From assembly GCA_031281765.1 (NCBI GenBank), contig JAITEX010000067.1, positions 1 through 34,918 on the forward strand: DNA of 34,918 bases. Direction: 5' to 3'. Within the stretch, counting starts at the first letter, position 1; every line of letters begins with the position of its first letter. Position numbers and translations under genes: made by a program. The notes under the pieces were generated by a model, which worked only from the letters and a program-made list of their open reading frames with translations, ran no database searches and was not told where the DNA came from. Shown here piece by piece: positions 4,948 through 22,703 of the stretch. This stretch comes from Eubacteriales Family XIII. Incertae Sedis bacterium. Its GTDB lineage: Bacteria; Bacillota; Clostridia; Peptostreptococcales; Anaerovoracaceae.

Positions 4948-5060
4948 AATTCGTGCGAATTTTTGCTGTATAATTTTACGAAGAATATTTATTTGAATTA
5001 TATGCGAAAGTGCGTTATATTTTTATTATAGATAGATATTTATATTAGGAGGTGATGATA

Positions 5061-5315
5061 ATGCCAAGCATTAAACCGGTATCGGATTTGAGAAACTATA
5101 ATGAAGTATTGCGAAATGTGAGCGCCGGCCGTCCAGTTTTTTTGACGAAAAACGGCAGGGGACGGTTTGCGATTATTGATATGGATGATTACGAGAAAAC
5201 GCAAGCGACCATAGCGCTTTTGACCGAGCTTTCGAAAGGAAGAACAAGCGGTGAAGAAAAAGGCTGGATTGCGGCAAGGGATGTTGAGGCCGAATTGGGG
5301 CTGAGCCTTGGCTAA
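5061..5315 (+). CDS. Phd/YefM-family type II antitoxin
   Basis: MPSIKPVSDLRNYNEVLRNVSAGRPVFLTKNGRGRFAIIDMDDYE is a typical Phd/YefM N-terminus. AGGAGG at 5047-5052 favours the ATG at 5061 over the starts at 5052/5055. Confidence 0.8.
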   Translation: MPSIKPVSDLRNYNEVLRNVSAGRPVFLTKNGRGRFAIIDMDDYEKTQATIALLTELSKGRTSGEEKGWIAARDVEAELGLSLG

Positions 5316-5640
5316 GGTAGTTTACTCGCCTGCCGCTCGCGCGGATATGGTTGAAATCAGGAATTATATCCGAGACGAACTTCAAAATCCGGCGGCAGCC
5401 GAACGTGTTCTGACGAGGATTGCAAAATCTTTACGGTTACTTGAGGACGCGCCAAGAATCGGTTCGCCGCTTTCCTCGGTAATTGATATTGATACCGAAT
5501 ATCGATTTCTTATTTCCGGGAACTATTTGTCATTTTATCGATATTATGACGATACCTGTTATATAGACCGCATACTCTATCGTCGGCGCGATTATATATC
5601 GATTCTTTTTGGCATTGACGCAGAGCCGGACGAAACTTGA
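5308..5640 (+). CDS. ParE/RelE-family type II toxin
   Basis: 110 aa. Its TTG start overlaps the antitoxin stop by 8 nt. The sequence (VVYSPAARADMVEIRNYI...RILYRRRDY) fits ParE-like plasmid-stabilisation toxins. Confidence 0.75.
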   Translation: MAKVVYSPAARADMVEIRNYIRDELQNPAAAERVLTRIAKSLRLLEDAPRIGSPLSSVIDIDTEYRFLISGNYLSFYRYYDDTCYIDRILYRRRDYISILFGIDAEPDET

Positions 5641-8391: not shown

Positions 8392-8410
8392 ACATATATA
8401 TTTTATATGC
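8392..8410. promoter_or_regulatory. AT-palindrome operator, site A
   Basis: ACATATATA-T-TTTATATGC, 16/18 arm positions matching the palindrome ACATATATA-N-TATATATGT. Starts 21 nt downstream of the -10. Confidence 0.65.
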
Positions 8411-8469: not shown

Positions 8470-8481
8470 GAGAAGGGAAAG

Positions 8482-9339
8482 ATGAGTTACAAAATCGCGT
8501 TTGCAAGTTCTGACGGAATACATATCGATCGCCATTTGGGCGAGGCTAAGACATTGACGATCCTGACAATAGGCGAGACAAAGAGCGTCACGACAGAAGT
8601 TTTGACAACGACGCTTGCGCCGGGCTCCGGAGGACGGGATGCTTCGCATCCCCATGCGCACGCGCACGTCAACCTTGCGCCCCTTTTAGATTGTGAATTT
8701 GTCGTGGCGCAGAAGATCGGACGCGAAATGTCCAAAGCGCTTTTGCGCAACAATATCTCCGCTATTGAACAGACGGGATCCATCGAGGAGGCGGCAACGG
8801 GCATCATCAAATTTAAGGAAACGCAGGAAAGGCGCCGGCATATAAGCAGGGATGACCTTGTCGTGGAAAAGGCGCACCCGCATGAATTGAATCAAATATC
8901 CGCCATCTATGTTCGGGCCCGCGTCAGGATGAACGAAAACGGCATCTACCAGTGGGATGAAAGATACCCGTTCGAAGAGATTACCCGGGCGGACATCAGT
9001 AATGGAAAGCTCTACATCCTCAAATTGAACGACAGGATCATCGGGGCGGCGACCCTTAACGATAGCTTGGAGTTCCCGGACGCGACGGAACTTGAGCAGG
9101 TTTATGTCATCCACCGGTTTTGCATCGACCCCGATTTTCAGAAGCGCGGCTTTGCCCGGCGCTTTCTCTTCTCCCTCTTTGAAATCGCACAAAGGGAGGG
9201 TATACATGAGATACACTTGGCCGTCGCGGAGCAGAACTTCATTGCGATAAGCTCATACCGGAAAGCCGGGTTTCGAAACCTTGAGCGCATGGATACAGGC
9301 GGGTTCGGCTATTTTCTGCATATGGCACGGAAGATATAG
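8482..9339 (+). CDS. Fusion protein: NifX/NifB-C-terminal-like (FeMo-cofactor-binding family) domain + GNAT N-acetyltransferase
   Basis: N-terminal ~115 aa (YKIAFASSDGIHIDRHLGEAKTLTI...VVAQKIGREMSKALLRNNISAIE) resembles the dinitrogenase FeMo-co biosynthesis (NifX/NafY/NifB-C) fold. The C-terminal ~160 aa has GNAT motif A (HRFCIDPDFQKRGFARRFL). One continuous ORF with RBS AGAAGGGAAAG. Confidence 0.8.
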   Translation: MSYKIAFASSDGIHIDRHLGEAKTLTILTIGETKSVTTEVLTTTLAPGSGGRDASHPHAHAHVNLAPLLDCEFVVAQKIGREMSKALLRNNISAIEQTGSIEEAATGIIKFKETQERRRHISRDDLVVEKAHPHELNQISAIYVRARVRMNENGIYQWDERYPFEEITRADISNGKLYILKLNDRIIGAATLNDSLEFPDATELEQVYVIHRFCIDPDFQKRGFARRFLFSLFEIAQREGIHEIHLAVAEQNFIAISSYRKAGFRNLERMDTGGFGYFLHMARKI

Positions 9340-9348
9340 GAGGGCTAC

Positions 9349-10047
9349 ATGGGAGAGAAATATTTTCGGTGGGATTATGTTCTGGATTATTTTCCGAAGC
9401 TGTTTGAAAAGCTTCCGGTCACCTTGTCCATCGTACTGATGGCGACTCTGTTCGGCAGCATTATCGCCGTATTCGTCGCCTTTATACGGCTTGAACGCAT
9501 ACCCGTCCTGAATCAGCTTTGCGTCGTATTTGTCTCCTTTATGCGCAGTACACCCATTATCGTGCAGATGTTTCTGCTTTTCTTCGGCTCTGTGATGATC
9601 TTCAACACTCTGTTCGGCATCAATATCATCACCTATAACAAAATCTGGTTTGTCTACGCAGCCTATGCGCTGAATCTGAGCGGGTTCATGGCCGAAATAT
9701 TCCGCGGCGCCATCCTCGGCGTCCCGAAAAAACAGATGGACGCAGCTATCTCTGTCGGCCATAACAGGCGTCAAGCGTATCTGCATATCATCATTCCGCA
9801 GGCGGCCGTCATCGCGTTGCCCACACTCGGTTATACGATTGTCGCGTTGCTGCAGGACTCAACGCTGGCTTTCACCTTCGGCATCATCGATGTCATCGGG
9901 GCAATCAACGGAGTGTCCGCCTCTACGGGCCACAAGCTCGAAGGCTACTTCGACGCCGCCTTTATGTTCGCTATACTCGCGATCCTCGTTGAGAAACTGT
10001 TCGGATTCTTGGAGAAAAAAACAACCCACCAGTCGAGAATCACATGA
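9349..10047 (+). CDS. Polar amino-acid ABC transporter permease (His/Glu/Gln/Arg/cystine-type)
   Basis: 232 aa, multi-TM, with an EAA-like loop (MAEIFRGAILGVPKKQMDAAISVG). RBS AGGAGGG 9 nt after the preceding stop. Confidence 0.9.
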   Translation: MGEKYFRWDYVLDYFPKLFEKLPVTLSIVLMATLFGSIIAVFVAFIRLERIPVLNQLCVVFVSFMRSTPIIVQMFLLFFGSVMIFNTLFGINIITYNKIWFVYAAYALNLSGFMAEIFRGAILGVPKKQMDAAISVGHNRRQAYLHIIIPQAAVIALPTLGYTIVALLQDSTLAFTFGIIDVIGAINGVSASTGHKLEGYFDAAFMFAILAILVEKLFGFLEKKTTHQSRIT

Positions 10048-10110
10048 CCGCAACCCGGAGTGTGTCTCAAATATATGAAGTTGCGTTTTATTGAAAGAAA
10101 GGAAAGTATC

Positions 10111-10944
10111 ATGAAAACGAAAATAACGAAAATTCTCATTGGCCTGCTGACGCTGAGTCTGTTGTTTGCTGTCGGCTGTTCAAAGTCGAACGACAAGGAC
10201 AGCGGCGAGGCAACCGACGGAGAAAAGACGAAGCTGATCGTCAGTTCGCAGCCGGGCGAGTACCCCCCGCTTATCTACGTGAATGAAAACGGGGAAAATG
10301 ACGGCATAGACTTCCGCATAATCAAGGCTTTGCAGGAGGAATTGCCACAGTACGAATTCGAAGTCGTTGCGCAGGATATGGCGACGACGCTGACCGCGCT
10401 CGATTCAGGAACAGTGGATGTGGGGCTCTGCATGTTCGAGTACAATGAACAGCGCGCCGAGAAATACGTCTACTCCGATGTCGGCTATATGGAATACGGT
10501 CAGTACATCGTCGTGCCGAAGGGCAATCCCCTCGGTATCAAGTCGCTCGACGATCTGGGCGGCAAACGCGTCAGCACCTACCCGTCATCCAATACCGCGT
10601 TTATTCTCGAGGATTATAACGCAAATCACCCGGACAACCAGATAGAGATCGTCTATGTGGCCGCAACGGACGCAATCCGCAAGGGCCTGCAAAGCGGAGA
10701 TACGGACGCGACGCTTTCGACCAAATGGGGCGTTGATCTGGAAGTTGCGCAGTTTGGCGACTATGAGGAGATTGCGGGCGAATCCATCTGGCCAGGCCAG
10801 GCCTATGTCCTCTTCCCGCGCACAAACGAAAACAAGCAAGTACAAGCGGACGTGAACGCCGCGCTCAAACGGCTTGTCGATTCCGGAGAAGCGCAGCGCA
10901 TCTACGACAACCTGCTTGAGGAATGGAAGGCGACCTTGAAATAG
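10111..10944 (+). CDS. Amino-acid ABC transporter substrate-binding lipoprotein (PBP type 3 family)
   Basis: Signal peptide with lipobox LLFAVGC. ATG at 10111 (MKTKITKIL) with RBS GAAAGGAAAG preferred over 10060. Periplasmic-binding-protein-like sequence. Confidence 0.85.
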   Translation: MKTKITKILIGLLTLSLLFAVGCSKSNDKDSGEATDGEKTKLIVSSQPGEYPPLIYVNENGENDGIDFRIIKALQEELPQYEFEVVAQDMATTLTALDSGTVDVGLCMFEYNEQRAEKYVYSDVGYMEYGQYIVVPKGNPLGIKSLDDLGGKRVSTYPSSNTAFILEDYNANHPDNQIEIVYVAATDAIRKGLQSGDTDATLSTKWGVDLEVAQFGDYEEIAGESIWPGQAYVLFPRTNENKQVQADVNAALKRLVDSGEAQRIYDNLLEEWKATLK

Positions 10945-10968
10945 GCGGAGCCGGAAAGCGAAGGGACT

Positions 10969-11682
10969 ATGTCAACCGTATTTGATTTTGATTTTTTTAT
11001 AGAATGCCTTAAGTCGGGCGCGGCGCGGATTCCGGTAAATCTTTACGTGGCCGCGGCGTCGGTATTCTTCGGAATGATATTCGGACTCATTATCGCGCTC
11101 ATACGGGTATTCCGGGTGCCGGTGCTGTCACCGATTTTCCGCTGGCTGGTCACCATACTAAAGGGCGTTCCTGTCATTCTTATGTTGCTCGTCTTCTATG
11201 TTCTCGCAGCGGATTACTTCAATTTAATTATGGAGTATTTCGGAATCGACTACACCTTTCGTCAGTTGAACAAGGCGATTATCGCTATAATCGCCTTGTC
11301 CGTCCTTTCATCCATAGGGCTTTCCGAGTCCTTCCGCGGCGCGCTCGCATCGGTGAAGAAGGGACAGTATGACGCGGCCTATTCCGTCTGGCTTACGAAG
11401 CGGCAGGCCCTCGTTTACGTCATTATACCGCAGGCCTTCCCTATCGCCGTACCGACGCTCTGCAATTATATTATCGGGATGATCAAGGCCGGCGCGCTCG
11501 CCGCTATGATTTCGGTTGTAGACATCATGAACGGCGCGCTCATCCCTGCCAACGCGAACTATCGATACCTCGAAGGGTACACGGCAGCCGCGTTGATTTA
11601 TTGGGTTGTTTGCGCGACGCTCGAAAAGGTATTGAATATCGCGGAAAAACGTTTCGCGAGCAAAGTAAGGGAGGTTGCTTAA
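10969..11682 (+). CDS. Polar amino-acid ABC transporter permease (second subunit)
   Basis: 237 aa, multi-TM, with an EAA-like loop (LSESFRGALASVKKGQYDAAYSV). Confidence 0.9.
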   Translation: MSTVFDFDFFIECLKSGAARIPVNLYVAAASVFFGMIFGLIIALIRVFRVPVLSPIFRWLVTILKGVPVILMLLVFYVLAADYFNLIMEYFGIDYTFRQLNKAIIAIIALSVLSSIGLSESFRGALASVKKGQYDAAYSVWLTKRQALVYVIIPQAFPIAVPTLCNYIIGMIKAGALAAMISVVDIMNGALIPANANYRYLEGYTAAALIYWVVCATLEKVLNIAEKRFASKVREVA

Positions 11683-12440
11683 TGATAGAGGTAAAGGGGC
11701 TGAAAAAGGCCTTTGGGCAAAACCAGGTACTCAAAGGGGTGGGCTTCCACGTCAATGAAGGGGATGTTATGACGCTGCTCGGCGTGAGCGGTTCGGGGAA
11801 AACGACGCTCATTCGTTGCCTGAATTATTTGGAGAGCCCCGACGAAGGGGTGATCCGCATCGATGACCGGACGGTGGACGCGCAGAAAATCACCAAGAAG
11901 GAAATCATCGAACTGCGGAAAAAGACCGCTATGGTTTTCCAGACCTACGACTTGTTCCTGAACCTGAACGCCCTGCAAAATGTTACGGAAGGGCTTATCC
12001 GGGGCGGCAAAATCCCGAAGCCGGACGCGGAGGATATTGCGCGTGATTTGCTTGAAAAAGTGGGGCTGTCCGCAAAATTGGAAAGCAAGCCCTATCAGCT
12101 TTCGGGCGGCGAACAGCAGCGTGTCGGGATAGCGCGCGCGCTCGCGCTCTGCCCTAAGGTCATCCTGTTTGACGAGCCGACTTCGGCGCTGGACCCGGAG
12201 GTGATCGGCGAGATATTGGATATTATCAAGGCGGTGGCGCGGAGCGGCGTTACCATGATTATCGTGACGCACGAGATGGAATTCGCGTTTAGCGTTTCCA
12301 ATAAGGTAGTCTTTATCGATCAGGGGGAAATCGTGGAGGAAGGGTCGCCGCGCGAGGTATTTCTGGAATCCAGTCAGGAACGCACGAAATCCTTCTTAGC
12401 CCGGTCGAATTTCCGGTTCCAACCGGAATATTATTTGTAA
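11682..12440 (+). CDS. Amino-acid ABC transporter ATP-binding protein
   Basis: Walker A GVSGSGKTT, signature LSGGEQQRVGIARAL, Walker B ILFDEPTSALD. The ATG at 11682 overlaps the permease stop (TAATG). The ORF-track start at 11601 is rejected. Confidence 0.92.
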   Translation: MIEVKGLKKAFGQNQVLKGVGFHVNEGDVMTLLGVSGSGKTTLIRCLNYLESPDEGVIRIDDRTVDAQKITKKEIIELRKKTAMVFQTYDLFLNLNALQNVTEGLIRGGKIPKPDAEDIARDLLEKVGLSAKLESKPYQLSGGEQQRVGIARALALCPKVILFDEPTSALDPEVIGEILDIIKAVARSGVTMIIVTHEMEFAFSVSNKVVFIDQGEIVEEGSPREVFLESSQERTKSFLARSNFRFQPEYYL

Positions 12441-12452
12441 AGGAGTAGCAAC

Positions 12453-13949
12453 ATGGGTACAATCAACATCGATGCCGGCACGGTCCCTATCCGGGAAACG
12501 CGGTTAGGCTCCATAACGGGGTATTATGGCGACCTGGAGGATCTGTCGACCAAGTCCTCCTGCGGGAATTTGAAGAACAGGGAACGCTGCTTCAGCCAAT
12601 GCAGCCTCTGCCTGAATATGTGTTCCATCGGGGAGTTCACCTCGCTGCGCGATGTGGCGGTCATCAACCACGCGCCCGCCGGGTGCAATGCGGGCTCCGC
12701 AGCCACCAAGGTGTTTGCCAAACAGATAGCGGAACGCATCGGCAAGGAGTATAATTCCGTGCTGGTCGGAACTGACCTCAATGAGAGTGACACCGTATTC
12801 GGCGCCACAGAATCGCTCCCGGACATCGTCCGACAGGTATATGAGAATTATCGTCCGAGCGCTATAGTAATCGCCTCCTCCTGCGTAAGCGGCGTCATAG
12901 GCGAGGACATCGAAAGCGTCACGAGCGAATTGGACAGACAATACGACATACCCATCTTCCCGATACAGTGTGAAGGCTTCCGCTCAAAGATTTGGCAGTC
13001 GGGCGCGGACATCGCCGACCACGCCTTTGTCAAATACATTGTCAAACCGCCGCAGGAGAAACGCAATGTAATCAATTTCAAGAACTTCTTTGAAAGCGAG
13101 CGTCAGCAGATCACGGAGATTTTTGCGGAGCTGGGTGTGACGCCCCAATTCCTCTATCTCAATTCCACGATTGAGGAGGTCGAACATCTTTCGGAATCCC
13201 TTGCGACGGTCAGCATCTGCGGCACGCTTGGCACCTATCTCGGCAACGCCCTCGAAGAACTTTACGGCGTACCTTATATCCGCAGCCTCAACCCGAACGG
13301 CATCACGGGATTCGAAAGCTGGCTTCGCGAGATAGGCAAAAAGATAGGGAAAAGCGCGGAGGTTGAGAACTATCTCACGCGTGAGAAGGCCAAGTATATC
13401 GATAAAATCGAGGAAGTGAAGGACGAACTGAAGGGGCTGACCGCCGTCATCGGCATGGGCCCCGGCTATGCTTTCGATGTGGGACGCGTTTTGCAGGAAT
13501 TGGGGCTTGAAATCATCTGGACGACTGCCTGGCACCTTGACTATCGTTACGACAACGGGGAAATGCCGACGTCCTTGCGCTATATGACGGAACACTCCGC
13601 AAATAATTTCGGCGTAAGCGTAGCGGATCAGCAGAATTTCGAGATAATGCATACGCTGAAGACGTTGAAGCCGGATGTCTATTTCTCGCGCCATCCGGGA
13701 ACCACGGTATGGGCGGTCAAACAAGGCATTGCATCCGTATTCGTCGCGGATGAGTATACGATATTCGGGTATCGCGGCACCTTGAATTTTGCCAATATGA
13801 TACTTGACGCGGTGCGCAACCGCAGTTTTGAACAGAACCTTGCCGCGCGGACGAAGCTGCCGTACACGGACTGGTGGTACGAGCAGAACAATCAGGCGAT
13901 GCTTTTGAATGAGGGCGAAACCAGACTGCGCGAGGCGGCGGCCCACTAG
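12453..13949 (+). CDS. Nitrogenase component-1 alpha-like subunit (NifD/NifE-like), paralog 1
   Basis: NHAPAGC, ASSCVSGVIGEDIESV and IQCEGFRSK parallel NifD HGPVGC, SECPIGLIGDDIESV and VRCEGFRG. VSICGTLGTY parallels the cofactor-Cys segment LVHCYRSMNY. RBS AAGGAG. Confidence 0.85.
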   Translation: MGTINIDAGTVPIRETRLGSITGYYGDLEDLSTKSSCGNLKNRERCFSQCSLCLNMCSIGEFTSLRDVAVINHAPAGCNAGSAATKVFAKQIAERIGKEYNSVLVGTDLNESDTVFGATESLPDIVRQVYENYRPSAIVIASSCVSGVIGEDIESVTSELDRQYDIPIFPIQCEGFRSKIWQSGADIADHAFVKYIVKPPQEKRNVINFKNFFESERQQITEIFAELGVTPQFLYLNSTIEEVEHLSESLATVSICGTLGTYLGNALEELYGVPYIRSLNPNGITGFESWLREIGKKIGKSAEVENYLTREKAKYIDKIEEVKDELKGLTAVIGMGPGYAFDVGRVLQELGLEIIWTTAWHLDYRYDNGEMPTSLRYMTEHSANNFGVSVADQQNFEIMHTLKTLKPDVYFSRHPGTTVWAVKQGIASVFVADEYTIFGYRGTLNFANMILDAVRNRSFEQNLAARTKLPYTDWWYEQNNQAMLLNEGETRLREAAAH

Positions 13950-13969
13950 CGGGGGAGGAAGAGGCAAAT

Positions 13970-15277
13970 ATGGCACAGATATTGGATCAACCGAGATATA
14001 AATGCGCTCTTGCGGCAATGCAGACCGTACACGCCATTCCGCGGGCCATACCCATCCTGCACGCGGGTCCGGGGTGCGGCACGAAACTGAACGACAATAC
14101 CGGCATCTCAGGGTATTATTCACCGAATATATTTCCGAGCACGAATATCGGCGAAAAGGAGGTGGTCTTCGGTGGCGAGGGCAAACTGCGAACCACCATC
14201 GAAAACGCGCTGAAAATAATTGACGCCGACCTCTTTGTTGTGCTGACCGGCTGCACGGCCGAGATCATAGGGGATGACGCCGAAGAAATCGTACACGAAT
14301 TTGCGGACGCGGGGAAGCGCGTCATCTACGTGAACACCCCCGGGTTCAAGGGGTCGAATTATCAAGGGCACGATTGGGTACTGACCGCCCTTTTCGAGCA
14401 GTATCTACCGCGCGAACGCGTCCCCGTAAACGCGAAGCAGGTGAACATATTCCCGGGGCCTCCGGTGCAGGATCCCTTTTGGCACGGCAACCTGAAGGAG
14501 CTGGAATCCCTGTTCCGCGAAATCGGCCTTGAGCCGAATATCATCTTCGGCTATGGCAACGGCGTTTCGGCCGTCGACCGCATACCGGCAGGCGCTTTCA
14601 ATATCCTCGTCTCGCCGTGGGTCGGCCTGGACAGCGTCAAGGTCCTCGAAAAGAAATACGGGACGCCGTACCTGCATTATCCCGTGCTGCCGATCGGCGC
14701 GACGGAGACGAGCAAGTTCCTCCGCGCCGTAGGGAAATTCACGAAGGTTGACGAGCTTCATGTCGAGCGCGTCATCGCCGAACATGAGAAGGAATATTAT
14801 TACTTTATCGAACGCTATTCGGATACCTTTCTCGAGCTGAGGATACTCTCCAAACGCTTCGTCGTCATATCCGACGCGCAGTACGCGATTGCCGCGACAA
14901 AGTTCCTCGTCAACGACCTCGGCTGGAACCCGGGCGGTACGCAGTTCGTTACGGACAACACGCCGGAGGAATACCGCGAAAGCGTCCGCTCCGAATTTGA
15001 AAAGCTCAATTACGGCATCAAGGCGTCGATGGAATTTTCGACAAACGGGTTTGAGATACAAAAGAAGATCAGGGAATCCGGATTTACCGCGCCGCCGATG
15101 ATCTTCGGCAGCAGTTGGGATAAGAGCTTCGCAAAGGAGATATATGCCCCCTTCCTGAACATCTCCTATCCTACGTATGACCGGCTCATCATCAACAGCG
15201 GCGTGGTCGGCTACGCCGGCGGCCTTAAGTTCCTGGAAGACATTTATACCACGGCGGTGCAGTCGCTTATTCTGTAA
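13970..15277 (+). CDS. Nitrogenase component-1 beta-like subunit (NifK/NifN-like), paralog 1
   Basis: YKCALAAM, HAGPGCG and LTGCTAEIIGDD parallel the three NifK P-cluster Cys motifs (ACQPLGA, HGSQGC, TTCMAEVIGDD). RBS GGGGGAGGAAGAGG. Confidence 0.85.
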   Translation: MAQILDQPRYKCALAAMQTVHAIPRAIPILHAGPGCGTKLNDNTGISGYYSPNIFPSTNIGEKEVVFGGEGKLRTTIENALKIIDADLFVVLTGCTAEIIGDDAEEIVHEFADAGKRVIYVNTPGFKGSNYQGHDWVLTALFEQYLPRERVPVNAKQVNIFPGPPVQDPFWHGNLKELESLFREIGLEPNIIFGYGNGVSAVDRIPAGAFNILVSPWVGLDSVKVLEKKYGTPYLHYPVLPIGATETSKFLRAVGKFTKVDELHVERVIAEHEKEYYYFIERYSDTFLELRILSKRFVVISDAQYAIAATKFLVNDLGWNPGGTQFVTDNTPEEYRESVRSEFEKLNYGIKASMEFSTNGFEIQKKIRESGFTAPPMIFGSSWDKSFAKEIYAPFLNISYPTYDRLIINSGVVGYAGGLKFLEDIYTTAVQSLIL

Positions 15278-16000: not shown

Positions 16001-16030
16001 TTGACAAGGATAGTTGGCATGTGGTATAAT
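16001..16030 (+). promoter_or_regulatory. Sigma-A promoter of the NifH-like gene (extended -10)
   Basis: TTGACA (16001-16006), 18-nt spacer, TGgTATAAT (16022-16030). Confidence 0.75.
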
Positions 16031-16031
16031 T

Positions 16032-16058
16032 ACATATATCATATATATGATATATATG
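16032..16058. promoter_or_regulatory. AT-palindrome operator, site B (two overlapping copies)
   Basis: ACATATATC-A-TATATATGA (16032-16050) overlaps CATATATAT-G-ATATATATG (16040-16058). Directly abuts the -10. Confidence 0.65.
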
Positions 16059-16085
16059 CAATATTCCATAAAGAAAGGGACAACT

Positions 16086-16976
16086 ATGGCGAAAAACGGC
16101 AAAGCGATCAAGCAGATTGCGATTTACGGCAAAGGGGGTATCGGCAAATCGACCACCACCTCGAACCTGAGCGCGGCATTGGCCGATCTCGGCTATAAGG
16201 TCATGCAATTCGGGTGTGACCCGAAAGCGGACTCCACGAATACCTTACGGGACGGTTCATATATTCCTACCGTGTTGGAACTATTGCGGGACCGGGGCAG
16301 CGTAAACGCCCACGACGCGATTTTTGTGGGATACAACGGCATATACTGCGTGGAGGCCGGCGGCCCGGCGCCCGGCGTGGGGTGCGCGGGGCGCGGTATC
16401 ATCACCGCGGTGCAATTGCTGAAAGAACAGGATATTTTCGAAGAACTCGATTTGGACTATGTGATCTACGACGTCCTCGGCGACGTTGTCTGCGGCGGCT
16501 TCGCGGTGCCCATCCGGGAGGGTATTGCGCAGCACGTCTTTACGGTTTCGTCCTCGGATTTTATGGCCATATACGCCGCCAACAATCTGTTCAAGGGCAT
16601 CCAGAAATATTCGAACTCGGGAGGCGCCCTCCTCGGCGGCATTATCGCGAACTCCGTTTCACCCGAATCCAATTATCAGCGATCCATTATCGACGATTTC
16701 GCCGCACGGACAAGCACGCAGATCATGCAATATATCCCCCGTTCCGTTACGGTGACCCAGAGCGAACTTTCGGGAAAGACGACCATAGAGGCCGCGCCGG
16801 ATTCCGCTCAGGCCAAGGTGTACCGCGAACTCGCGCGCCGCATCGACGAGCATGTCGACTCCAAGACGCCAACGCCTTTGGAACCTTCGCAATTGCGCGA
16901 CTGGGCCGCAGAATGGTCCGACCAGATACTCGCCATCGAAACCGGCGAGGTCCGCACGGAAGCGGCCAACATCTAA
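16086..16976 (+). CDS. NifH-like ATPase / Fe-protein (nitrogenase iron protein family)
   Basis: [18 protein letters not shown] (Walker A), GCDPKADST (switch I), and [4Fe-4S] Cys in [12 protein letters not shown] and [17 protein letters not shown] at 16086 with RBS AAAGGGA. Confidence 0.92.
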
Positions 16977-17021: not shown

Positions 17022-18389
17022 CTACAGGCTCAATTTTCTGCGGAAGGTCCGGGCGATAAGGCAGAGGCTGATAAGGCAGGTTGCCGTCTCCGCAACCGGA
17101 AAGCAGTACCAGACATAGCGCGGTTCAAACACCCGCCACAACAGTAAGGCGGCCGGGATGATGAATACGAGCTGTCTGAGCGAGGATATGATAAACGACA
17201 CAAACCCCACTCCGATAGATTGATAAAAGTTGGCTGTCATAATGGAAACCCCGGACATCGCGAAGGATATGCTGATGACGCGGAGCGCAAACGCCCCTAT
17301 CTCGTTGAGGTTCGCGGACGCGTGGAAAAGGCTCATGATCTCCTGCGGGAACATCTGCGTAAGCGCCGTCCCCACGAGCATAGCCGTTACGGAAGATACC
17401 ATCGCGAGAATAAATGTCTTGCGGACGCGCGGGATATTACGCGCCCCGTAATTGAAGCTGATAATAGGCAGGGCTCCCTGCCCTATTCCAAAGACGGGCG
17501 TAATGATTATCGTCTGCAGGCGATAATATATGCCGAGAACCGCCACGGCTGTCACCGAATACGCCATGAGAATAGCGTTCATCAAGAGTGACGATAGCGA
17601 CGAGATCCCATACATGAAGATGGAAGGCGCCCCGACTCTATAGATGTCCTTAATAATGGGGAAGTTGAAGCGCAGCGTACGCAGGGCAAAGCTCACATCA
17701 CTTTTCGCGCGCGCGAGCAGGATGAGGCCGAGCGCGGCCGCCGAGCACTGCCCTATCACCGTAGCCGTAGCCGAGCCGGCGATCCCGAGCGCGGGGAAGC
17801 CGAACTTCCCGAAAATAAGGATGGGATTGAGAACGATGTTGATGACCGTCCCGACGATGTTAAATATAAGCGGCTGATAGACGAGCCCCACCGATTGCAA
17901 AATCCTCTCGATATTGAACTGGAAGAAGGCGCCGAGGGAGCCGACCGTCGTGATAGTGCAAAACACCGACGCAAGGGACAGCAGCTCGGGGTCGTCGGTG
18001 AGCAGATGCAGAAACGGCATGGTGAGGAGGATGCCGAAGGCCGCGAAAACCAACCAGCTTGCTATGACAAGCAGGTACGCCTGATTGGCGACCGCCGAAA
18101 CCTTTTCCCTGTTCTTCTCCCCGTAGGAGCGGGCCATCAGGGAACCGACGCCAACGCCGGTCCCCGCGGCGATCGCCATGAGAAACATCGGGATGGGGAA
18201 AACGAGCGTCGTCGCAGCCAACGCTTTCTCGGAGATGCGCGCCACGAAGATGCTGTCCACGATATGGTAGACGGATTGGGCCGTCATGGTAACGATGGGC
18301 GGTATCGACATCGCCGCGAGCAAGCGCCCGACGGGTCTGGTTCCTAACTTCTCACTTCCCGGCTCAACGCCGCCCATCTTACCGGCCAT
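17022..18389 (-). CDS. MATE-family efflux transporter
   Basis: 455 aa, ~12 predicted TM segments, with a typical MATE N-terminus (RLLAAMSIPPIVTMTAQSVYHIVDSIFVARI). The start codon lies 2 nt after the NifK-like-2 stop. Confidence 0.88.
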   Translation of the reverse strand: MAGKMGGVEPGSEKLGTRPVGRLLAAMSIPPIVTMTAQSVYHIVDSIFVARISEKALAATTLVFPIPMFLMAIAAGTGVGVGSLMARSYGEKNREKVSAVANQAYLLVIASWLVFAAFGILLTMPFLHLLTDDPELLSLASVFCTITTVGSLGAFFQFNIERILQSVGLVYQPLIFNIVGTVINIVLNPILIFGKFGFPALGIAGSATATVIGQCSAAALGLILLARAKSDVSFALRTLRFNFPIIKDIYRVGAPSIFMYGISSLSSLLMNAILMAYSVTAVAVLGIYYRLQTIIITPVFGIGQGALPIISFNYGARNIPRVRKTFILAMVSSVTAMLVGTALTQMFPQEIMSLFHASANLNEIGAFALRVISISFAMSGVSIMTANFYQSIGVGFVSFIISSLRQLVFIIPAALLLWRVFEPRYVWYCFPVAETATCLISLCLIARTFRRKLSL

Positions 18390-18391
18390 GA

Positions 18392-19678
18392 TTACAGATT
18401 GTTGAACAGGTCCTCAACGAGGGTTATCGCGCCGCGGTATCCGCTATAGGTGCGGTTGAGAATCAGCTGGTCGGTGATGGGATACGCCGCAACGAATATC
18501 TGCGCGTCACGATTGAAGGCGATTTCCCGTTCCAATGAACTGCCGACAAACAGCGAGACGTCGTTATACTCGTCGAGGGCCCGGCCCACATCGTAATTAT
18601 CGGTGGCAAAGACGACATCCGGCCCTTTGACATATTCGAGATCCTGTATCCGGTCCCGTATAGCCGCCTTATCCGCTTCGCGTGACACCGGTTCGGTCAC
18701 CACGGTGACCACCGGGGTGAACCCGAGGTCGTTCGCGAGCGCGTGCGTCATGCCTATCGCCACATTGGCGTCCCCGATGACGGCGAATTTCTTCCACGAC
18801 AGAGCGCCGATGGCCGTTTCGTAATAATTATAGACGTAAGACTCCTCCTCGTAGATGACATCCTCGACGAGTTTGCCGTCTATAGCAAGCGCGTCCGCAA
18901 CCTGCCGGACGAGGCGCGTCGTATCGGTCGCGCCGACCGGCAGCCCCGGGAAACGGAGGCTCGGCACGCCGAACCTCTTTTCAAATTTCCTTGCCTCGCC
19001 TTGCAGGAGCCACGGATTGACTATGACGTTCAGCGCCGCCGCGCCGGCATTTTTTATATGTTCAATGCCCTGGCCGTGCGAGAAGAAGGTATTCACCTCC
19101 AGACCGAGCTTGGAAAAGATGCGCACTAATTCCTCAAACGTGCCCGCCCAATAGGGGTCATGATAGGGGAAGATGCCGAGCAGGTTGATGAGATTGGCCT
19201 GCCTGGGCCGCCCCGGCTCCACGAGCTGGCTCAGGAAGGTGGATATGGTCGTTTCGTATCCGAGGTTGCTGTCCCCCGCAAACCCCGGCGTGGGGATGTT
19301 ATAGACCGGGAAGCCTTCCGCGCGGAACCCCTTCGCCACCGTCTCCGTATCATCGCCGATAATGCCCGATGTGCAGCCGTTGAGGATGAAGTAGGCGTCC
19401 GCGTCGATAATGTCGATACTGCCGCGAATCGTATCGGTGAGTTTTTCAATGCCGCCAAACACCACCTCGCGTTCGAGCATAAGCGAGCAGGGAAGGGACA
19501 CGCTCGAGAGGAAATGCGGCGACTTGAGTCCCGCCTGCCCCGCTTCCCCCGCGCTGGTCTGGAGTCCGCATCCGGGTCCCGAATGAAAGATCGGGCAGAA
19601 TTTGTTGACGGCTGACAGGGTGCTGTTGATGCCGCCGAGTACGCAGCTGCCCCGGGGGTTCTCGGTAACGATGGACAT
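18392..19678 (-). CDS. Nitrogenase component-1 beta-like subunit (NifK/NifN-like), paralog 2
   Basis: GSCVLGG, HSGPGCG and LNGCTSGIIGDD give all three NifK-type P-cluster Cys motifs. The start lies 1 nt after the NifD-like-2 stop. Confidence 0.85.
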   Translation of the reverse strand: MSIVTENPRGSCVLGGINSTLSAVNKFCPIFHSGPGCGLQTSAGEAGQAGLKSPHFLSSVSLPCSLMLEREVVFGGIEKLTDTIRGSIDIIDADAYFILNGCTSGIIGDDTETVAKGFRAEGFPVYNIPTPGFAGDSNLGYETTISTFLSQLVEPGRPRQANLINLLGIFPYHDPYWAGTFEELVRIFSKLGLEVNTFFSHGQGIEHIKNAGAAALNVIVNPWLLQGEARKFEKRFGVPSLRFPGLPVGATDTTRLVRQVADALAIDGKLVEDVIYEEESYVYNYYETAIGALSWKKFAVIGDANVAIGMTHALANDLGFTPVVTVVTEPVSREADKAAIRDRIQDLEYVKGPDVVFATDNYDVGRALDEYNDVSLFVGSSLEREIAFNRDAQIFVAAYPITDQLILNRTYSGYRGAITLVEDLFNNL

Positions 19679-19679
19679 A

Positions 19680-21131
19680 TTAGATTACCTCCTTTATAAA
19701 CTTGAACGGGTCTTCGTCATACCAGCTCTCGCGATACGGCAGGCGCGCATACTTCGACAGCTTCTTGTTGAATCCCGGGTTTTCGATTTGGGCCGCGATC
19801 TTATTCCCCAGCCACACGATGCCGTCATAGCCCATAGTCGGCCGTTTCGGATCCAGAATATGCGTGGTCGGAATGCCGAACCTCGACGACCAGGAGGGTA
19901 CGCCGATAAAGACGTCCGGTTTCAGTTTGTTCACTATATTTACCTGTTCAAAGGGCAGCATATTGGCGACGTCGATGAGGTAATCCCCGTGAATATCGTT
20001 CAGAAACGCTATGTCGTCCTGAGCGTCAAGGTCGTAGACGGGCGTTTCAATGCCGAGCAGTTTCATGCCGAAATCATCGATAAGGGTGGCCGCCGCGAAC
20101 GAACGGCCCGTGCCGCCGCAGATAAACACCGACTTGCCCTGTAGCTTCAGCTTGATCTTGTCCAATTCCGGCTGAATGCGCGCGTGTTCGGTGGCGATGA
20201 TCTCTTCGACTTCATCCCCCTTGCCGGTGATCTCGGCAATGGCGCGATACCACTTATCCGTATTGCGTATTCCCACCGGCATCACCGTATGGGCGTAAGG
20301 AATGCCGAAGTCATGTTCGATGTCCTTCATAAACTCATCGGCGAACACCTTGCAGATGGACGTGGACGCTTCGGCGTTCGGTATATTCAGAACTTTGTCA
20401 TAGTCGCTGAAGAAGGGCAAAAAGTTGCTCTTCAATCCTATCCTCCGCAGCAATTTTTCTATTTCGAGCTGATCCGCGAAGCTCACCGTCATCGGCGCGA
20501 AGAGATTGATAAGGCCCTTCTCCTTCTTCGGGACCGCGCCTTTTAACACGAATTTCGATATGGCGATAAAAGCGGCGTCGTACCCGGAAGCGCAGATTTT
20601 CGACCGAAAACCGTCGCAGTGCACGGGGACGATGAGCGCCTCCGTATCCGGCTGCGCCTCGCGGACGATGGCGTCAACATCATCGCCTATTATACCGGAA
20701 GCGCAGGAGGTGAACACGAAAATCAGCTTTGGCTTGTACCGTTCGGACGCAAGCCGGATGGATTCGCGCAGCTTCCCCTCGCCTCCCATAATGACGTCGC
20801 TCTGATCGAGGTTTGTTATGAGGATCTTCGGTGACGTGATTTTCTCGGCGCCGCGATGGATCTGCGCGACACGGTACATATCCGCCCCCATGGTGATACA
20901 CCCGACACAGCCCTGCGGCGCGTGCGCGATGAGCACGGCGTCATTGACCGAAAGTAACGCGGATATGCTGTTCAGCTCCTGGCATTGATAGCTCTGGCTG
21001 AACGTGCGATCAGCGTTCTTAATACATTTCTTCTTGAAATCCTGCTCGATTTGCAGACTGCTGCCCGCAAGATCGAGATACGTATCGGTGTATTCGCGTT
21101 GTTCCCGAATACCGGAATAGGTTCTTGGCAT
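19680..21131 (-). CDS. Nitrogenase component-1 alpha-like subunit (NifD/NifE-like), paralog 2
   Basis: HAPQGC, FTSCASGIIGDDVDAIV, VHCDGFRSK, STSICKVFADEF (cofactor-Cys position) and GIPTTHILD (candidate His). The ATG at 21131 (MPRTYSG) follows a GGGAGGAG RBS, so the ORF-track start at 21149 is rejected. Confidence 0.85.
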   Translation of the reverse strand: MPRTYSGIREQREYTDTYLDLAGSSLQIEQDFKKKCIKNADRTFSQSYQCQELNSISALLSVNDAVLIAHAPQGCVGCITMGADMYRVAQIHRGAEKITSPKILITNLDQSDVIMGGEGKLRESIRLASERYKPKLIFVFTSCASGIIGDDVDAIVREAQPDTEALIVPVHCDGFRSKICASGYDAAFIAISKFVLKGAVPKKEKGLINLFAPMTVSFADQLEIEKLLRRIGLKSNFLPFFSDYDKVLNIPNAEASTSICKVFADEFMKDIEHDFGIPYAHTVMPVGIRNTDKWYRAIAEITGKGDEVEEIIATEHARIQPELDKIKLKLQGKSVFICGGTGRSFAAATLIDDFGMKLLGIETPVYDLDAQDDIAFLNDIHGDYLIDVANMLPFEQVNIVNKLKPDVFIGVPSWSSRFGIPTTHILDPKRPTMGYDGIVWLGNKIAAQIENPGFNKKLSKYARLPYRESWYDEDPFKFIKEVI

Positions 21132-21175
21132 CTTTCTCCTCCCATACATCCGTCTCCGTCAATATAGCCTAATTA

Positions 21176-21318: not shown

Positions 21319-21337
21319 ACATATATATTATATATGT
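21319..21337. promoter_or_regulatory. AT-palindrome operator, site C (perfect 9-1-9 palindrome)
   Basis: ACATATATA-T-TATATATGT. Starts 13 nt after the -10. Confidence 0.7.
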
Positions 21338-21398: not shown

Positions 21399-22301
21399 AT
21401 GCGGAGAAGGACGGATTTCGTGAAAACATACAGAAACGGAAGTTTGATAAACCAACACCCCTGCTTCAACCATGGGGCGAAAGCAGGCAGGATTCACCTG
21501 CCGGTTTGCCCTTCTTGCAATATTTTCTGCAATTTTTGCGTAAGAAAAACGGATGATGAGGAATGGGATGTCGTGCGGCCCGGGCTTTCGTCGGGATTGA
21601 TCGCACCGGAGGAAGCGGGAAGATATGTCGCCGACGCATTGCACTTCTGCCCGGACATTTCGGTGGTCGGTATCGCGGGGCCGGGAGATACGCTTGCAAC
21701 CGATCATGCGCTCCGGGCCTTCGCCTCGGTTCACGAGCGGTTTCCGCATCTGCTGAAATGCATGAGCACGAATGGCCTGCGCCTGTCGGAACGTTTGGGC
21801 GAAGTGATTCGCGCCGGAGTGGATACGCTGACCGTAACGGTGAATGCCGTTGATCCCGGGATCCTCAAGGATATATGCTCAGGCATTATCTATCAAAACA
21901 AGCTGCTCTCGGGCGCCGAAGGCGCCGAAATCCTGATCGCGAATCAGCTCGGCGGCATTAAGGCGGCAGCCTTGGCCGGCATTACCATAAAGGTGAATAT
22001 GGTGCTGATACCGGAGATCAATGGCGACCACGTTAAACAGGTCGCGCATGAGGTCGGAAACGCGGGAGCTTCTATCTTCAACATCATCCCTCTTATCCCG
22101 CAGAACAAGCTCAGCGAATGTGCGGCGCCGAACTGCGGCCAGATTGCCGATGCGCGCGCGGACGCGGAAACGTTTCTGCCCGTATTCAAACATTGCCAAC
22201 ATTGCCGTGCCGACGCGGTAGGGCTTCTGGGTGGCCGGGATTTCGGCCGGGAGGTCTTCGCGAATAAGGAAGCGGTAGCCGACACATTCTCCCACGGATG
22301 A
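21399..22301 (+). CDS. NifB-like radical SAM protein (stand-alone SAM domain, no fused NifX domain)
   Basis: HPCF...GRIHLPVCPSCNIFCNFCVRK (HPC motif + CX3CX2C), VVGIAGPGDTLA, KCMSTNGL and the C-terminal HCQHCRADAVGLLG closely parallel NifB. The start is uncertain: ATG at 21399, or GTG at 21420 behind GGAGAAGGA. Confidence 0.85.
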   Translation: MRRRTDFVKTYRNGSLINQHPCFNHGAKAGRIHLPVCPSCNIFCNFCVRKTDDEEWDVVRPGLSSGLIAPEEAGRYVADALHFCPDISVVGIAGPGDTLATDHALRAFASVHERFPHLLKCMSTNGLRLSERLGEVIRAGVDTLTVTVNAVDPGILKDICSGIIYQNKLLSGAEGAEILIANQLGGIKAAALAGITIKVNMVLIPEINGDHVKQVAHEVGNAGASIFNIIPLIPQNKLSECAAPNCGQIADARADAETFLPVFKHCQHCRADAVGLLGGRDFGREVFANKEAVADTFSHG

Positions 22302-22327
22302 GCTGCCTGAAACGGAAGGTGACATTT

Positions 22328-22678
22328 ATGGCATATAGAGCTGCCTTTGCAACGAGCGACGGATTGACCGTTTACAAACACTTCGGACAAGCGAACGAAT
22401 ATCTCGTCGCCGACATCCTGGAAGACCATTATGAAATCGTAGCTCGCAGAAACGTAGTCCCTCCCTGCAACGCCCGCGGGCACTCGGAAGCGGCGTTCGA
22501 CGCGGTACTTGACGCCTTATCCGACTGTGAAGCCATTTTCGTCGGCAAGGTCGGAGTGGGAGCTGCGGAATACATCGCAAGCCGGGGTATAAACGTATTT
22601 GAAACCCCGGGTGTGATCGATGAGATTTTTTTAAAACAAAAATCGCAGGCGCCTCTTGATAAAAAACGGGATATATGA
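22328..22678 (+). CDS. NifX/NifB-C-terminal-like FeMo-cofactor-binding family protein
   Basis: MAYRAAFATSDGLTVYKHFGQANEYLV...IFVGKVGVGAAEYIASRGINVFE. ATG at 22328 with RBS GGAAGGTGA preferred over 22298. Confidence 0.8.
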   Translation: MAYRAAFATSDGLTVYKHFGQANEYLVADILEDHYEIVARRNVVPPCNARGHSEAAFDAVLDALSDCEAIFVGKVGVGAAEYIASRGINVFETPGVIDEIFLKQKSQAPLDKKRDI

Positions 22679-22684: not shown

Positions 22685-22703
22685 ACATATATGTTATATA
22701 TGT
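22685..22703. promoter_or_regulatory. AT-palindrome operator, site D
   Basis: ACATATATG-T-TATATATGT (17/18 arm positions). Directly abuts the -10. Confidence 0.65.

What the first reader, a model, noticed from the sequence alone, without database searches (positions are those of the whole stretch)
18392..21131. NifDK-like pair 2 in a divergent operon: Cys plus a candidate His cofactor ligand; neither pair looks like a NifEN scaffold
Seen in sequence: the alpha-like subunit 2 has HAPQGC, TSCASGIIGDD, STSICKVF (Cys275-equivalent segment) and RFGIPTTHILDPKRPTMGYDG. That last segment has a His close to where NifD has His442 (GIPFREMH). The beta-like subunit 2 has GSC, HSGPGC and NGCTSGIIGDD. Established: NifN lacks most P-cluster Cys, and NifE lacks the His. 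Here both beta-like proteins keep three Cys each, so the duplication is DK+DK-like rather than DK+EN-like. Only pair 2 has the Cys+His combination expected for a tightly bound M-cluster-type cofactor. Inference: either two catalytic reductases share one Fe-protein (different substrates or steps), or pair 1 has taken over an EN-like maturation role by a different route.
Basis: partly seen in the sequence, partly recalled or inferred. Interest (0 to 1): 0.6.

Follow-up and report, generated by a model that had tools for sequence, protein, structure and literature searches.

The report
Nitrogenase-like reductase with nitrogenase-type histidine
These two genes encode the catalytic half of an uncharacterised nitrogenase-like enzyme, probably used to recover sulfur without oxygen; it is neither a nitrogenase nor a cofactor scaffold, and its family appears to hold its iron-sulfur cofactor with a histidine at the nitrogenase position, not the position used by its only characterised relative.

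Summary
All quoted motifs are present in two intact, tightly coupled genes on the minus strand: D2 (19680-21131) and K2 (18392-19678).

- Neither pair is NifEN. NifD+NifE split from all nitrogenase-like (NFL) rows with 100/100 support, and the AU test rejects D2+NifE (p 4e-7).
- The closest solved relative of both pairs is methylthio-alkane reductase MarDK (PDB 9FMG).
- "Only pair 2 has Cys+His" is wrong. Pair 1 has the MarD-type ligands: Cys256 plus the Loop I Arg-His.
- Pair 2 lacks Loop I. Its invariant His (119/119 relatives) sits at the NifD His442 column in a profile-profile alignment.
- D2K2 belongs to a large, conserved clade (Lachnospiraceae, Clostridium, Treponema and others).
- In 7 of 55 genomes D2K2 is the only DK pair. 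Its own NifB- and NifH-like genes were seen beside it in five of the seven, so it is an autonomous enzyme, not a maturase.

Neighbouring genes point to anaerobic organosulfur salvage: an amino-acid ABC importer, cysteine synthase-like and Cys/Met PLP enzymes, and an Rrf2 regulator. The substrate is unknown.

This scan met the family before on other DNA (a Treponema, Clostridia and a Lachnospiraceae genome). The point I did not find in the papers read is that the histidine sits in a different loop.

The parts
19680..21131 (-). D2: alpha-like (NflD-type) subunit of NFL pair 2, 483 aa. An in-frame ATG at 21149 would give 489 aa, which is the numbering used in this report.
   Evidence: PF00148 257 bits. 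Best PDB hit is MarD 9fmg_A, 222 bits. The AF2 model has pLDDT 90.4 and TM 0.85/0.89 to 9fmg_A. A Shine-Dalgarno GGGAGGAG precedes the 21131 ATG.
18392..19678 (-). K2: beta-like (NflK-type) subunit of pair 2, 428 aa.
   Evidence: PF00148 222 bits. Best PDB hit is MarK 9d9u_C, 229 bits. The three P-cluster Cys columns are kept.
19860..19862 (-). Codon of His430 (His424 in the 483-aa form): proposed cofactor ligand at the NifD His442 / Loop II column.
   Evidence: Invariant in 119/119 relatives. Aligned to NifD His442 by L-INS-i and hhalign. The spacing H-x2-D-x6-G-[YF]-D-G is the same as in NifD.
20352..20354 (-). Codon of Cys266: equivalent of NifD Cys275 and MarD Cys270.
   Evidence: 119/119 conserved.
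20592..20594 (-). Codon of Cys186: family-specific Cys at the column of MarD Trp195 and NifD Gln191.
   Evidence: 116/119 conserved; column equivalence.
17022..18389 (-). MATE-family efflux protein; its start lies 2 nt after the K2 stop.
   Evidence: PF01554 158 bits. Weak MatE-like hits (21-27% identity) lie within the flanks of D2K2 in about 11 other loci.
21399..22301 (+). NifB/MarB-like radical SAM cofactor maturase without a NifX domain, divergent from D2.
   Evidence: TIGR01290 234 bits over model positions 9-290. It is the only NifB-like gene found in the assembled genome.
22298..22678 (+). NifX-like cofactor carrier.
   Evidence: TIGR02663 and the NifB C-terminal region match. NifX-like genes lie next to D2 in 47 related loci.
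16014..16976 (+). Single NifH-like Fe protein (NflH). The true start is probably near 16110.
   Evidence: PF00142 333 bits; TIGR01287 399 bits. It is the only full NifH-type gene in the assembly.
12453..15277 (+). Pair 1 (D1 12453-13949, K1 13970-15277): MarD/Nfa-type NFL pair with the Loop I Arg-His.
   Evidence: 298 and 349 bits to MarD and MarK. D1 falls in the Arg-His clade, 100/100.
8482..12440 (+). NifX-domain::GNAT fusion and a polar-amino-acid ABC importer (permease, SBP, permease, ATPase), upstream of pair 1.
   Evidence: The ATPase's best match is the cystine-type TcyN model.
21319..21337 (.). Perfect 9-1-9 AT-rich palindrome in the D2/NifB divergent intergenic region. Related sites lie at 8392, 16032 and 22685.
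   Evidence: 6 overlapping matches at four places with up to 3 mismatches, against 0 expected in shuffles.

Best explanation
D2K2 is the catalytic alpha2beta2 component of a Group IV nitrogen-fixation-like (NFL) reductase. It belongs to a widespread, strongly conserved and uncharacterised clade.

Shown:
- The clade is separate from NifDK/NifEN and from the Arg-His clade that holds MarDK-like D3 and pair 1.
- All six P-cluster Cys and the cofactor Cys are kept.
- The MarD Loop I Arg-His is deleted, and an invariant His sits at the nitrogenase His442 column.
- The pair can be the only DK pair in a genome. In five of the seven such genomes a NifB-like and a NifH-like gene lie beside it.

Inferred:
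- The single NflH dimer delivers electrons, using ATP, through a P-type cluster to a NifB-made [Fe8S9C] L-type cluster.
- That cluster is held by Cys266 and His430.
- The enzyme reductively cleaves a C-S bond in an imported, amino-acid-type organosulfur compound to supply cysteine and methionine synthesis under anoxic sulfur limitation.
- In this genome it shares NflH, NifB and NifX with pair 1 and with a third pair on another contig.
For: Family and fold:
- PF00148 matches end to end; best PDB hits are MarD and MarK (9fmg/9d9u); the AF2 model has TM 0.85/0.89 to 9fmg_A against about 0.72 to NifD.

Phylogeny:
- NifD+NifE split from all NFL rows at 100/100.
- D2 sits in its own 9-row clade (100/100), outside the 13-row Arg-His clade (100/100).
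- The AU test rejects D2+NifE: delta lnL 199.5, p 3.9e-7.
- K2 likewise separates from NifK+NifN.

Ligands:
- His430 is 119/119 and Loop I is absent in all 119.
- hhalign and L-INS-i place His430 on NifD His442 and Cys266 on Cys275.

Autonomy:
- D2K2 are the only two PF00148 genes in 7 of 55 D2-bearing genomes. Two of these are isolates, Lachnospiraceae bacterium C6A11 and Eubacterium ruminantium FB3002.
- NifB-like and NifH-like genes lie next to the pair in five of the seven (L048, L050, L053, L075, L079); none was seen in the flanks of L071 and L078.

Sulfur context around D2K2 in 80 loci:
- NifX-like 47, PALP (cysteine synthase-like) 25, Cys/Met PLP enzyme 23, NMT1-type ABC 21, Rrf2 regulator 20.
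- An importer gene lies within 1.5 kb in 23 of 74 loci.

Literature:
- MarDK holds a P-cluster and an [Fe8S9C] cluster made by MarB/NifB, with no NifEN needed. Other Group IV clades lack MAR activity but sit beside sulfur genes (PMC12552129, PMC13753814).
Against: - No biochemistry exists for this clade.
- That His430 is a ligand rests on alignment. The tools return no coordinates, so its distance to the cofactor site could not be measured.
- One large automatic MAFFT alignment placed the 2-residue gap differently and shifted His430 by two columns from NifD His442.
- The two nearest sister representatives (P0127, P0129) have neither histidine, so a His ligand is not universal in the wider clade.
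- In this window the amino-acid importer sits beside pair 1, not pair 2.
- The own genome is only 72.6% complete, so a second NflH or NifB could be unassembled.
- The published Group IV letter (probably D or E) could not be assigned.
Confidence: 0.65

Rival explanations
1. D2K2 is a methylthio-alkane reductase isozyme. It would have the same chemistry as MarDK (DMS, EMS, methylthioethanol to methanethiol plus a hydrocarbon) with a shifted substrate range, like Mar2 of Rhodopseudomonas palustris.
For: MarDK is the closest solved relative. Several Mar-like paralogues with different substrate ranges are documented in one genome (bioRxiv 10.64898/2026.08.20.746119). The gene context is sulfur-related.
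Against: D2 lies outside the Arg-His clade that holds the MarD-like D3. Of eight MarD active-site residues named in the papers, most differ: His194 is Ile, Trp195 is Cys, Ser196 is Ala, and Phe374/His375 and Arg428/His429 are deleted. The Group IV clades tested outside IV-C showed no physiologically relevant MAR activity (PMC13753814). The adjacent importer is of the polar-amino-acid type, and a volatile thioether would need no such importer.
Confidence: 0.15
2. D2K2 is a NifEN-like scaffold or maturase that processes the NifB product for pair 1 or the third pair.
For: D2 is divergently adjacent to the NifB-like and NifX-like genes here. A NifX-like gene lies next to D2 in 47 loci. NCBI pipelines often name the family 'NifE'.
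Against: In 7 genomes D2K2 is the only DK pair, so there is nothing to mature. It is not a NifE orthologue. All six P-cluster Cys are kept. R. rubrum MAR needs no NifEN or homologue (PMC13753814).
Confidence: 0.05
3. D2K2 reduces a substrate that is not a sulfur compound, for example N2 or another nitrogen compound as proposed for Group IV-A Nfa, or a cofactor precursor. The sulfur-gene neighbourhood would then be incidental.
For: The His is at the nitrogenase position. Group IV-A Nfa has been implicated in N2 fixation (PMC13474568).
Against: The NifD residues Gln191, His195 and Lys426 are not kept. No NifEN, and no NifD above the curated cut-off, was found in the genome. Sulfur amino-acid genes recur across phyla in the flanks.
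Confidence: 0.07

Closest known systems
Methylthio-alkane reductase MarDK (Group IV-C NFL; Rhodospirillum rubrum; PDB 9FMG, 9D9U)
   Same: Same fold and best sequence and structure match. Six P-cluster Cys and the cofactor Cys (MarD Cys270 = D2 Cys266) are shared. It also depends on a NifB-like maturase and a NifH-like ATPase, needs no NifEN, and sits among sulfur genes.
   Different: D2 is about 27% identical over the structural alignment. It falls in a different starred clade. The MarD hallmark Loop I Arg428-His429 is deleted, as are Phe374/His375. Trp195 is replaced by a conserved Cys. The candidate His ligand lies in Loop II. An amino-acid-type importer is linked.
Nitrogenase NifD (Mo, V and Fe types)
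   Same: The His lies at the His442 column with identical spacing to the G-[YF]-D-G motif. Cys275 and the three alpha P-cluster Cys are kept.
   Different: D2 scores 131 bits against a NifD cut-off of 654. Gln191, His195 and Lys426 are absent. There are no NifEN or homocitrate features. NifD separates from all NFL rows at 100/100.
NifEN cofactor scaffold
   Same: Same superfamily; automatic annotation often calls the family NifE; a NifX-like carrier is encoded nearby.
   Different: It is not orthologous (AU p 3.9e-7). It keeps all beta-subunit P-cluster Cys. It occurs in genomes with no other DK pair to serve.
Multi-paralogue NFL systems sharing one NflH (Heliophilum fasciatum NflDK1-5; R. palustris Mar1/Mar2/NflDK3)
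   Same: Several DK pairs with a single Fe protein and a NifB-type maturase, induced by or linked to sulfur limitation.
   Different: The R. palustris paralogues are reported to keep the MarD-type Cys/His pair; no such statement was found for H. fasciatum. D2K2 is a more distant lineage whose candidate His lies in a different loop.

Membership tests
Nitrogenase component 1 superfamily (PF00148) | Full-length match above Pfam's gathering score in both subunits | tested here: met
   257 and 222 bits against a cut-off of 28.6
NifEN | Score above the NifE and NifN equivalog cut-offs | tested here: not met
   D2 scores 167 bits on NifE (cut-off 505). K2 scores 35 bits on NifN (cut-off 327).
NifEN | Phylogenetic grouping with bona fide NifE and NifN | tested here: not met
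   NifD+NifE split from all NFL rows at 100/100. AU rejects D2+NifE, p 3.9e-7. In the K tree, NifK+NifN split off at 100.
NifEN | Serves a co-resident NifDK-type enzyme | tested here: not met
   D2K2 is the only PF00148 pair in 7 genomes. No NifD above the cut-off was found in the own genome.
Methylthio-alkane reductase MarDK (Group IV-C) | Six P-cluster Cys and the cofactor Cys270 | tested here: met
   D2 Cys56/81/149/266 and K2 Cys12/37/102
Methylthio-alkane reductase MarDK (Group IV-C) | Extended Loop I with Arg428-His429, proposed as the MAR hallmark (PMC12552129) | tested here: not met
   A 4-residue deletion is present in all 119 family members. D1 and D3 keep the Arg-His.
Methylthio-alkane reductase MarDK (Group IV-C) | Placement in the clade that contains MarD | tested here: not met
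   D2 lies outside the 13-row Arg-His clade (100/100) that holds D3, which scores 399 bits to R. rubrum MarD. No R. rubrum sequence could be put in the tree, so D3 stands in as proxy.
Methylthio-alkane reductase MarDK (Group IV-C) | Cleavage of DMS, EMS or methylthioethanol | not testable with these tools
   Needs expression and gas chromatography.
Bona fide nitrogenase alpha subunit (NifD/VnfD/AnfD) | His at the His442 (Loop II) column together with Cys275 | tested here: met
   hhalign and L-INS-i. One automatic alignment shifts the His by two columns.
Bona fide nitrogenase alpha subunit (NifD/VnfD/AnfD) | Gln191, His195 and the homocitrate anchor Lys426; score above the NifD cut-off | tested here: not met
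   The columns hold Cys186 and Tyr/Phe190, and the Lys426 region reads GVPSW. D2 scores 131 bits against 654.
Group IV NFL systems (NflBHDK) | NifB-like, NifH-like, D-like and K-like genes together, co-localised with sulfur-metabolism genes | tested here: met
   Window layout; 80 related loci.
Group IV lettered subclade (IV-D or IV-E) | Grouping with the reference sequences of North et al. 2020 | not testable with these tools
   The reference list and paper are not held. Cluster names gave no anchors.

The most novel reading that the evidence does not exclude
In the D2 lineage the histidine that anchors the [Fe8S9C] cofactor moved. The MarD-type Loop I histidine was deleted and a histidine arose at the nitrogenase Loop II position. 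That would make this clade an independent, non-nitrogenase example of nitrogenase-style Cys/His cofactor ligation. It would also make it a natural test case for how the protein scaffold tunes L-cluster chemistry, here towards an amino-acid-type organosulfur substrate.
Probability: 0.4. Interest if true: 0.7.

Novelty: new variant of a known kind. Interest (0 to 1): 0.5.

Why it matters
MarDK showed that nitrogenase-type great clusters work outside nitrogen fixation. Its authors could not infer the ancestral histidine ligand, because nitrogenase and MAR use different loops (PMC12552129). A third, abundant NFL clade lacks the MAR loop and carries an invariant His at the nitrogenase column. That bears directly on the open question, and it can be tested by structure and mutagenesis.

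The clade is common in rumen, gut and soil anaerobes, including cultured isolates such as Eubacterium ruminantium, Treponema bryantii and Butyrivibrio. It sits next to importers and cysteine/methionine enzymes. Finding its substrate would add an oxygen-free route of organosulfur assimilation, possibly one that forms hydrocarbons.

Tried and rejected
- D-K fusion. The genome search listed open frames of 915-1012 aa for many D2-type hits. Direct translation of 70 loci shows a stop after D2 in every one, so there is no fusion.
- Group IV letter. The mBio 2026, Chem Rev 2026 and mSphere 2024 texts and the cluster names gave no usable reference sequences, and North et al. 2020 is not held. The letter stays unassigned.
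- Cys numbering against E. proavitum NfaD. Both D1 and D3 resemble it, so it does not discriminate.
- Co-occurrence statistics within the genome's own phylum. No D2 orthologue was found in 400 genomes. This is informative only in suggesting horizontal acquisition.
There are therefore no expression or sample data.
- Docking of NflH2 with D2K2 was not attempted: the complex exceeds the 1000-residue limit of complex prediction.
- Residue-level geometry of His430 was not obtainable, because the structure tools return no coordinates.
Full report
**Observation.** The minus strand holds two intact genes. D2 runs from 19680 to 21131; an in-frame ATG at 21149 gives the 489-aa numbering used here. K2 runs from 18392 to 19678. 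Both proteins match PF00148 end to end. D2, K2 and a MATE exporter (17022-18389) are separated by 1 and 2 nt. This operon is divergent from a NifB-like radical SAM gene (21399-22301) and a NifX-like gene (22298-22678).

On the plus strand lie, in order:
- a NifX-domain::GNAT fusion;
- a polar-amino-acid ABC importer;
- pair 1 (D1 12453-13949, K1 13970-15277);
- a TetR-type gene;
- the single NifH-like gene (16014-16976).

**What the pairs are related to.** For all four proteins the best solved relative is the R. rubrum methylthio-alkane reductase MarDK (9FMG/9D9U).

| Protein | Bits to MarD or MarK |
|---|---|
| D1 | 298 |
| K1 | 349 |
| D2 | 222 |
| K2 | 229 |

An AlphaFold2 model of D2 (pLDDT 90.4) matches 9fmg_A with TM 0.85/0.89. 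NifD chains score about 0.72, and NifE ranks lower. All NifD, NifE, NifK and NifN equivalog scores are far below their cut-offs. The assembled genome is a 1.56-Mb MAG, 72.6% complete. It holds a third pair, D3K3, on contig C50. D3 is the closest to MarD (399 bits). The pair lies next to an O-acetylhomoserine sulfhydrylase-type gene, a GNAT and an NMT1-type ABC transporter. Only one NifH-like and one NifB-like gene were found, both in the window.

**Phylogeny.** I took bona fide NifD/K/E/N from other genomes, checked against the curated models. I added 150 representatives from a search of 1.84 billion proteins. A careful IQ-TREE of 50 rows gave the following:
- NifD+NifE separate from all NFL rows (100/100).
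- A 13-row clade whose members mostly carry the Loop I Arg-His holds both D1's subclade and D3's MarD-like subclade (100/100).
- D2 sits in a different 9-row clade (100/100).

Forcing D2's family together with NifE costs 199.5 log-likelihood units (p-AU 3.9e-7). K1, K2 and K3 likewise separate from NifK+NifN.

**The histidine.** The MAR structure paper shows that the [Fe8S9C] cluster is held by MarD Cys270 and His429. His429 lies with Arg428 in an extended Loop I that nitrogenases lack. NifD His442 lies in a different Loop II (PMC12552129).
- D1 (SRHPG) and D3 (ARHGG) have the Loop I Arg-His and the Cys. The statement that only pair 2 has Cys+His is therefore wrong.
- D2 has a 4-residue deletion exactly there.
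- D2 His430 aligns with NifD His442 in an L-INS-i alignment and in a profile-profile (hhalign) alignment of the D2 family against NifD.
- From the His to the conserved G-[YF]-D-G motif the spacing is the same in both (H-x2-D-x6-G).
- His430 is invariant in 119 relatives at 62-79% identity, and none of them has Loop I.

Across the wider tree:
- a neighbouring clade keeps a shorter Loop I with His but no Arg;
- D2's two nearest sister representatives have neither His;
- D2 plus one further representative (P0125) have the Loop II His.

This pattern fits loss of the Loop I ligand followed by gain of a Loop II ligand in this lineage. That reading is an inference. One automatic alignment shifts the His by two columns, and no coordinates were available to measure distances.

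The papers I could read say either that nitrogenase-like alpha subunits lack His442 (PMC3464626; PMC13474568) or that nearly all Group IV sequences keep the MAR Cys/His pair (PMC13753814). I found no description of this variant in them.

**Active site.** Most of the MarD residues discussed in the literature differ in D2.

| MarD residue | In D2 |
|---|---|
| His194 | Ile |
| Trp195 | Cys186 (116/119 conserved) |
| Ser196 | Ala |
| Phe199 | Tyr here; Phe in 112 of 119 relatives |
| Phe374/His375 | deleted |
| Arg428/His429 | deleted |

NifD Gln191 and His195 are not kept either. A different substrate or chemistry from both MAR and nitrogenase is likely. An L-type cluster without homocitrate is the reasonable expectation.

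**Is it a scaffold?** Eighty loci from named genomes carry D2 orthologues. They include Lachnospiraceae, Clostridium, Butyrivibrio, Eubacterium ruminantium, Treponema bryantii and MAGs of other phyla.
- In the 74 loci where both genes were detected, K2 follows D2 directly. In the other six the contig ends or only part of the pair is present.
- A common order is NifB, NifX, NflH, D1, K1, D2, K2 and an ABC importer.
- Of 39 loci with full flanks, 24 have a pair-1 type within 10 kb.
- Whole-genome counts of PF00148 show exactly two genes, D2 and K2, in 7 of 55 genomes. Two of the seven are isolates.
- In five of the seven (L048, L050, L053, L075, L079) a NifB-like and a NifH-like gene lie next to the pair. 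In L071 and L078 none was detected in the flanks.
- Conversely, a genome of the window's own phylum has a D1 orthologue (60% identity) but no D2 orthologue.

The two pair types are therefore independent modules that are often linked, and D2K2 is an enzyme in its own right. Published genetics also show that MAR needs no NifEN. Two of three NifE references carry His at the 442 column, and two of three NifN references keep all three Cys.

**Likely role.** Gene families that recur beside D2K2 are:

| Family | Loci |
|---|---|
| NifX-like carrier | 47 |
| PALP (cysteine synthase-like) | 25 |
| Cys/Met PLP enzyme | 23 |
| Aminotransferase | 21 |
| NMT1-type ABC transporter | 21 |
| Rrf2 regulator | 20 |

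A polar-amino-acid importer gene lies within 1.5 kb in 23 of 74 loci, against 6 of 31 for pair 1. Group IV clades outside IV-C lacked MAR activity in R. rubrum, and their authors tie them to sulfur metabolism of unknown kind.

I therefore favour ATP-driven reductive C-S cleavage of an imported amino-acid-type organosulfur compound. The substrate is a guess.

No D2 orthologue was found in 400 genomes of the window's own phylum, so the cluster was probably acquired horizontally.

**Verdict.** The object is a member of a known but uncharacterised NFL lineage. This scan has met the lineage before on other DNA. The added point is the ligand arrangement: Loop I lost, with a His at the nitrogenase column. 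Multi-paralogue NFL systems that share one Fe protein are already described.

Noticed in passing
L007 (own genome contig C50) 5426-13108: A third NFL pair, D3 (9802-11307, minus) and K3 (8481-9860, minus). D3 is the genome's closest MarD relative (399 bits). The pair is flanked by a GNAT, an O-acetylhomoserine sulfhydrylase-type PLP enzyme and an NMT1-type ABC transporter, with no NifH or NifB of its own.
   Followed up: partly
window 8482-9339: One ORF joins a NifX/NafY-type cofactor-binding domain (PF02579) to a GNAT acetyltransferase, at the head of the importer/pair-1 operon.
   Followed up: partly
window 8392-8410, 16032-16059, 21319-21337, 22685-22703: An AT-rich 9-1-9 palindrome (ACATATATA-N-TATATATGT) occurs at four places in the cluster, against 0 expected by shuffling. 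D2's own upstream region has no copy within 3 mismatches other than the shared one at 21319.
   Followed up: partly
L014, L015, L017 (NifEN references from other genomes): Two of three curated-score NifE proteins carry His at the NifD His442 column, and their NifN partners keep all three P-cluster Cys. The Azotobacter-like third reference does not. The textbook NifEN ligand pattern is therefore lineage-specific.
   Followed up: partly
Genomes of L024 (Candidatus Clostridium eludens) and L035 (Bacillota MAG): These genomes have 29 and 31 PF00148 matches, a very large expansion of nitrogenase-like paralogues.
   Followed up: no
Representatives P0130, P0137, P0138, P0143, P0147, P0151 and P0127, P0129: One neighbouring NFL clade has a shorter Loop I with His but no Arg. 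D2's two nearest sister representatives have no His in either loop. Cofactor ligation seems to vary widely across Group IV.
   Followed up: partly
K2 orthologues in L018, L022, L028, L036, L050, L053, L067, L075, L079: Nine of the 11 K2-type proteins aligned have a double Cys (GPGCC) at the second P-cluster ligand. The window's K2 and L089 have GPGCG.
   Followed up: no
window 5052-5640: A Phd/YefM antitoxin gene and a ParE toxin gene form a type II toxin-antitoxin pair.
   Followed up: no
400 genomes of the window's own phylum: No D2 orthologue was found (E <= 1e-120) in any of the 400 sampled genomes of the same phylum. The nearest relatives are in Lachnospiraceae, Clostridia and Treponema, which suggests the cluster was acquired horizontally.
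   Followed up: partly
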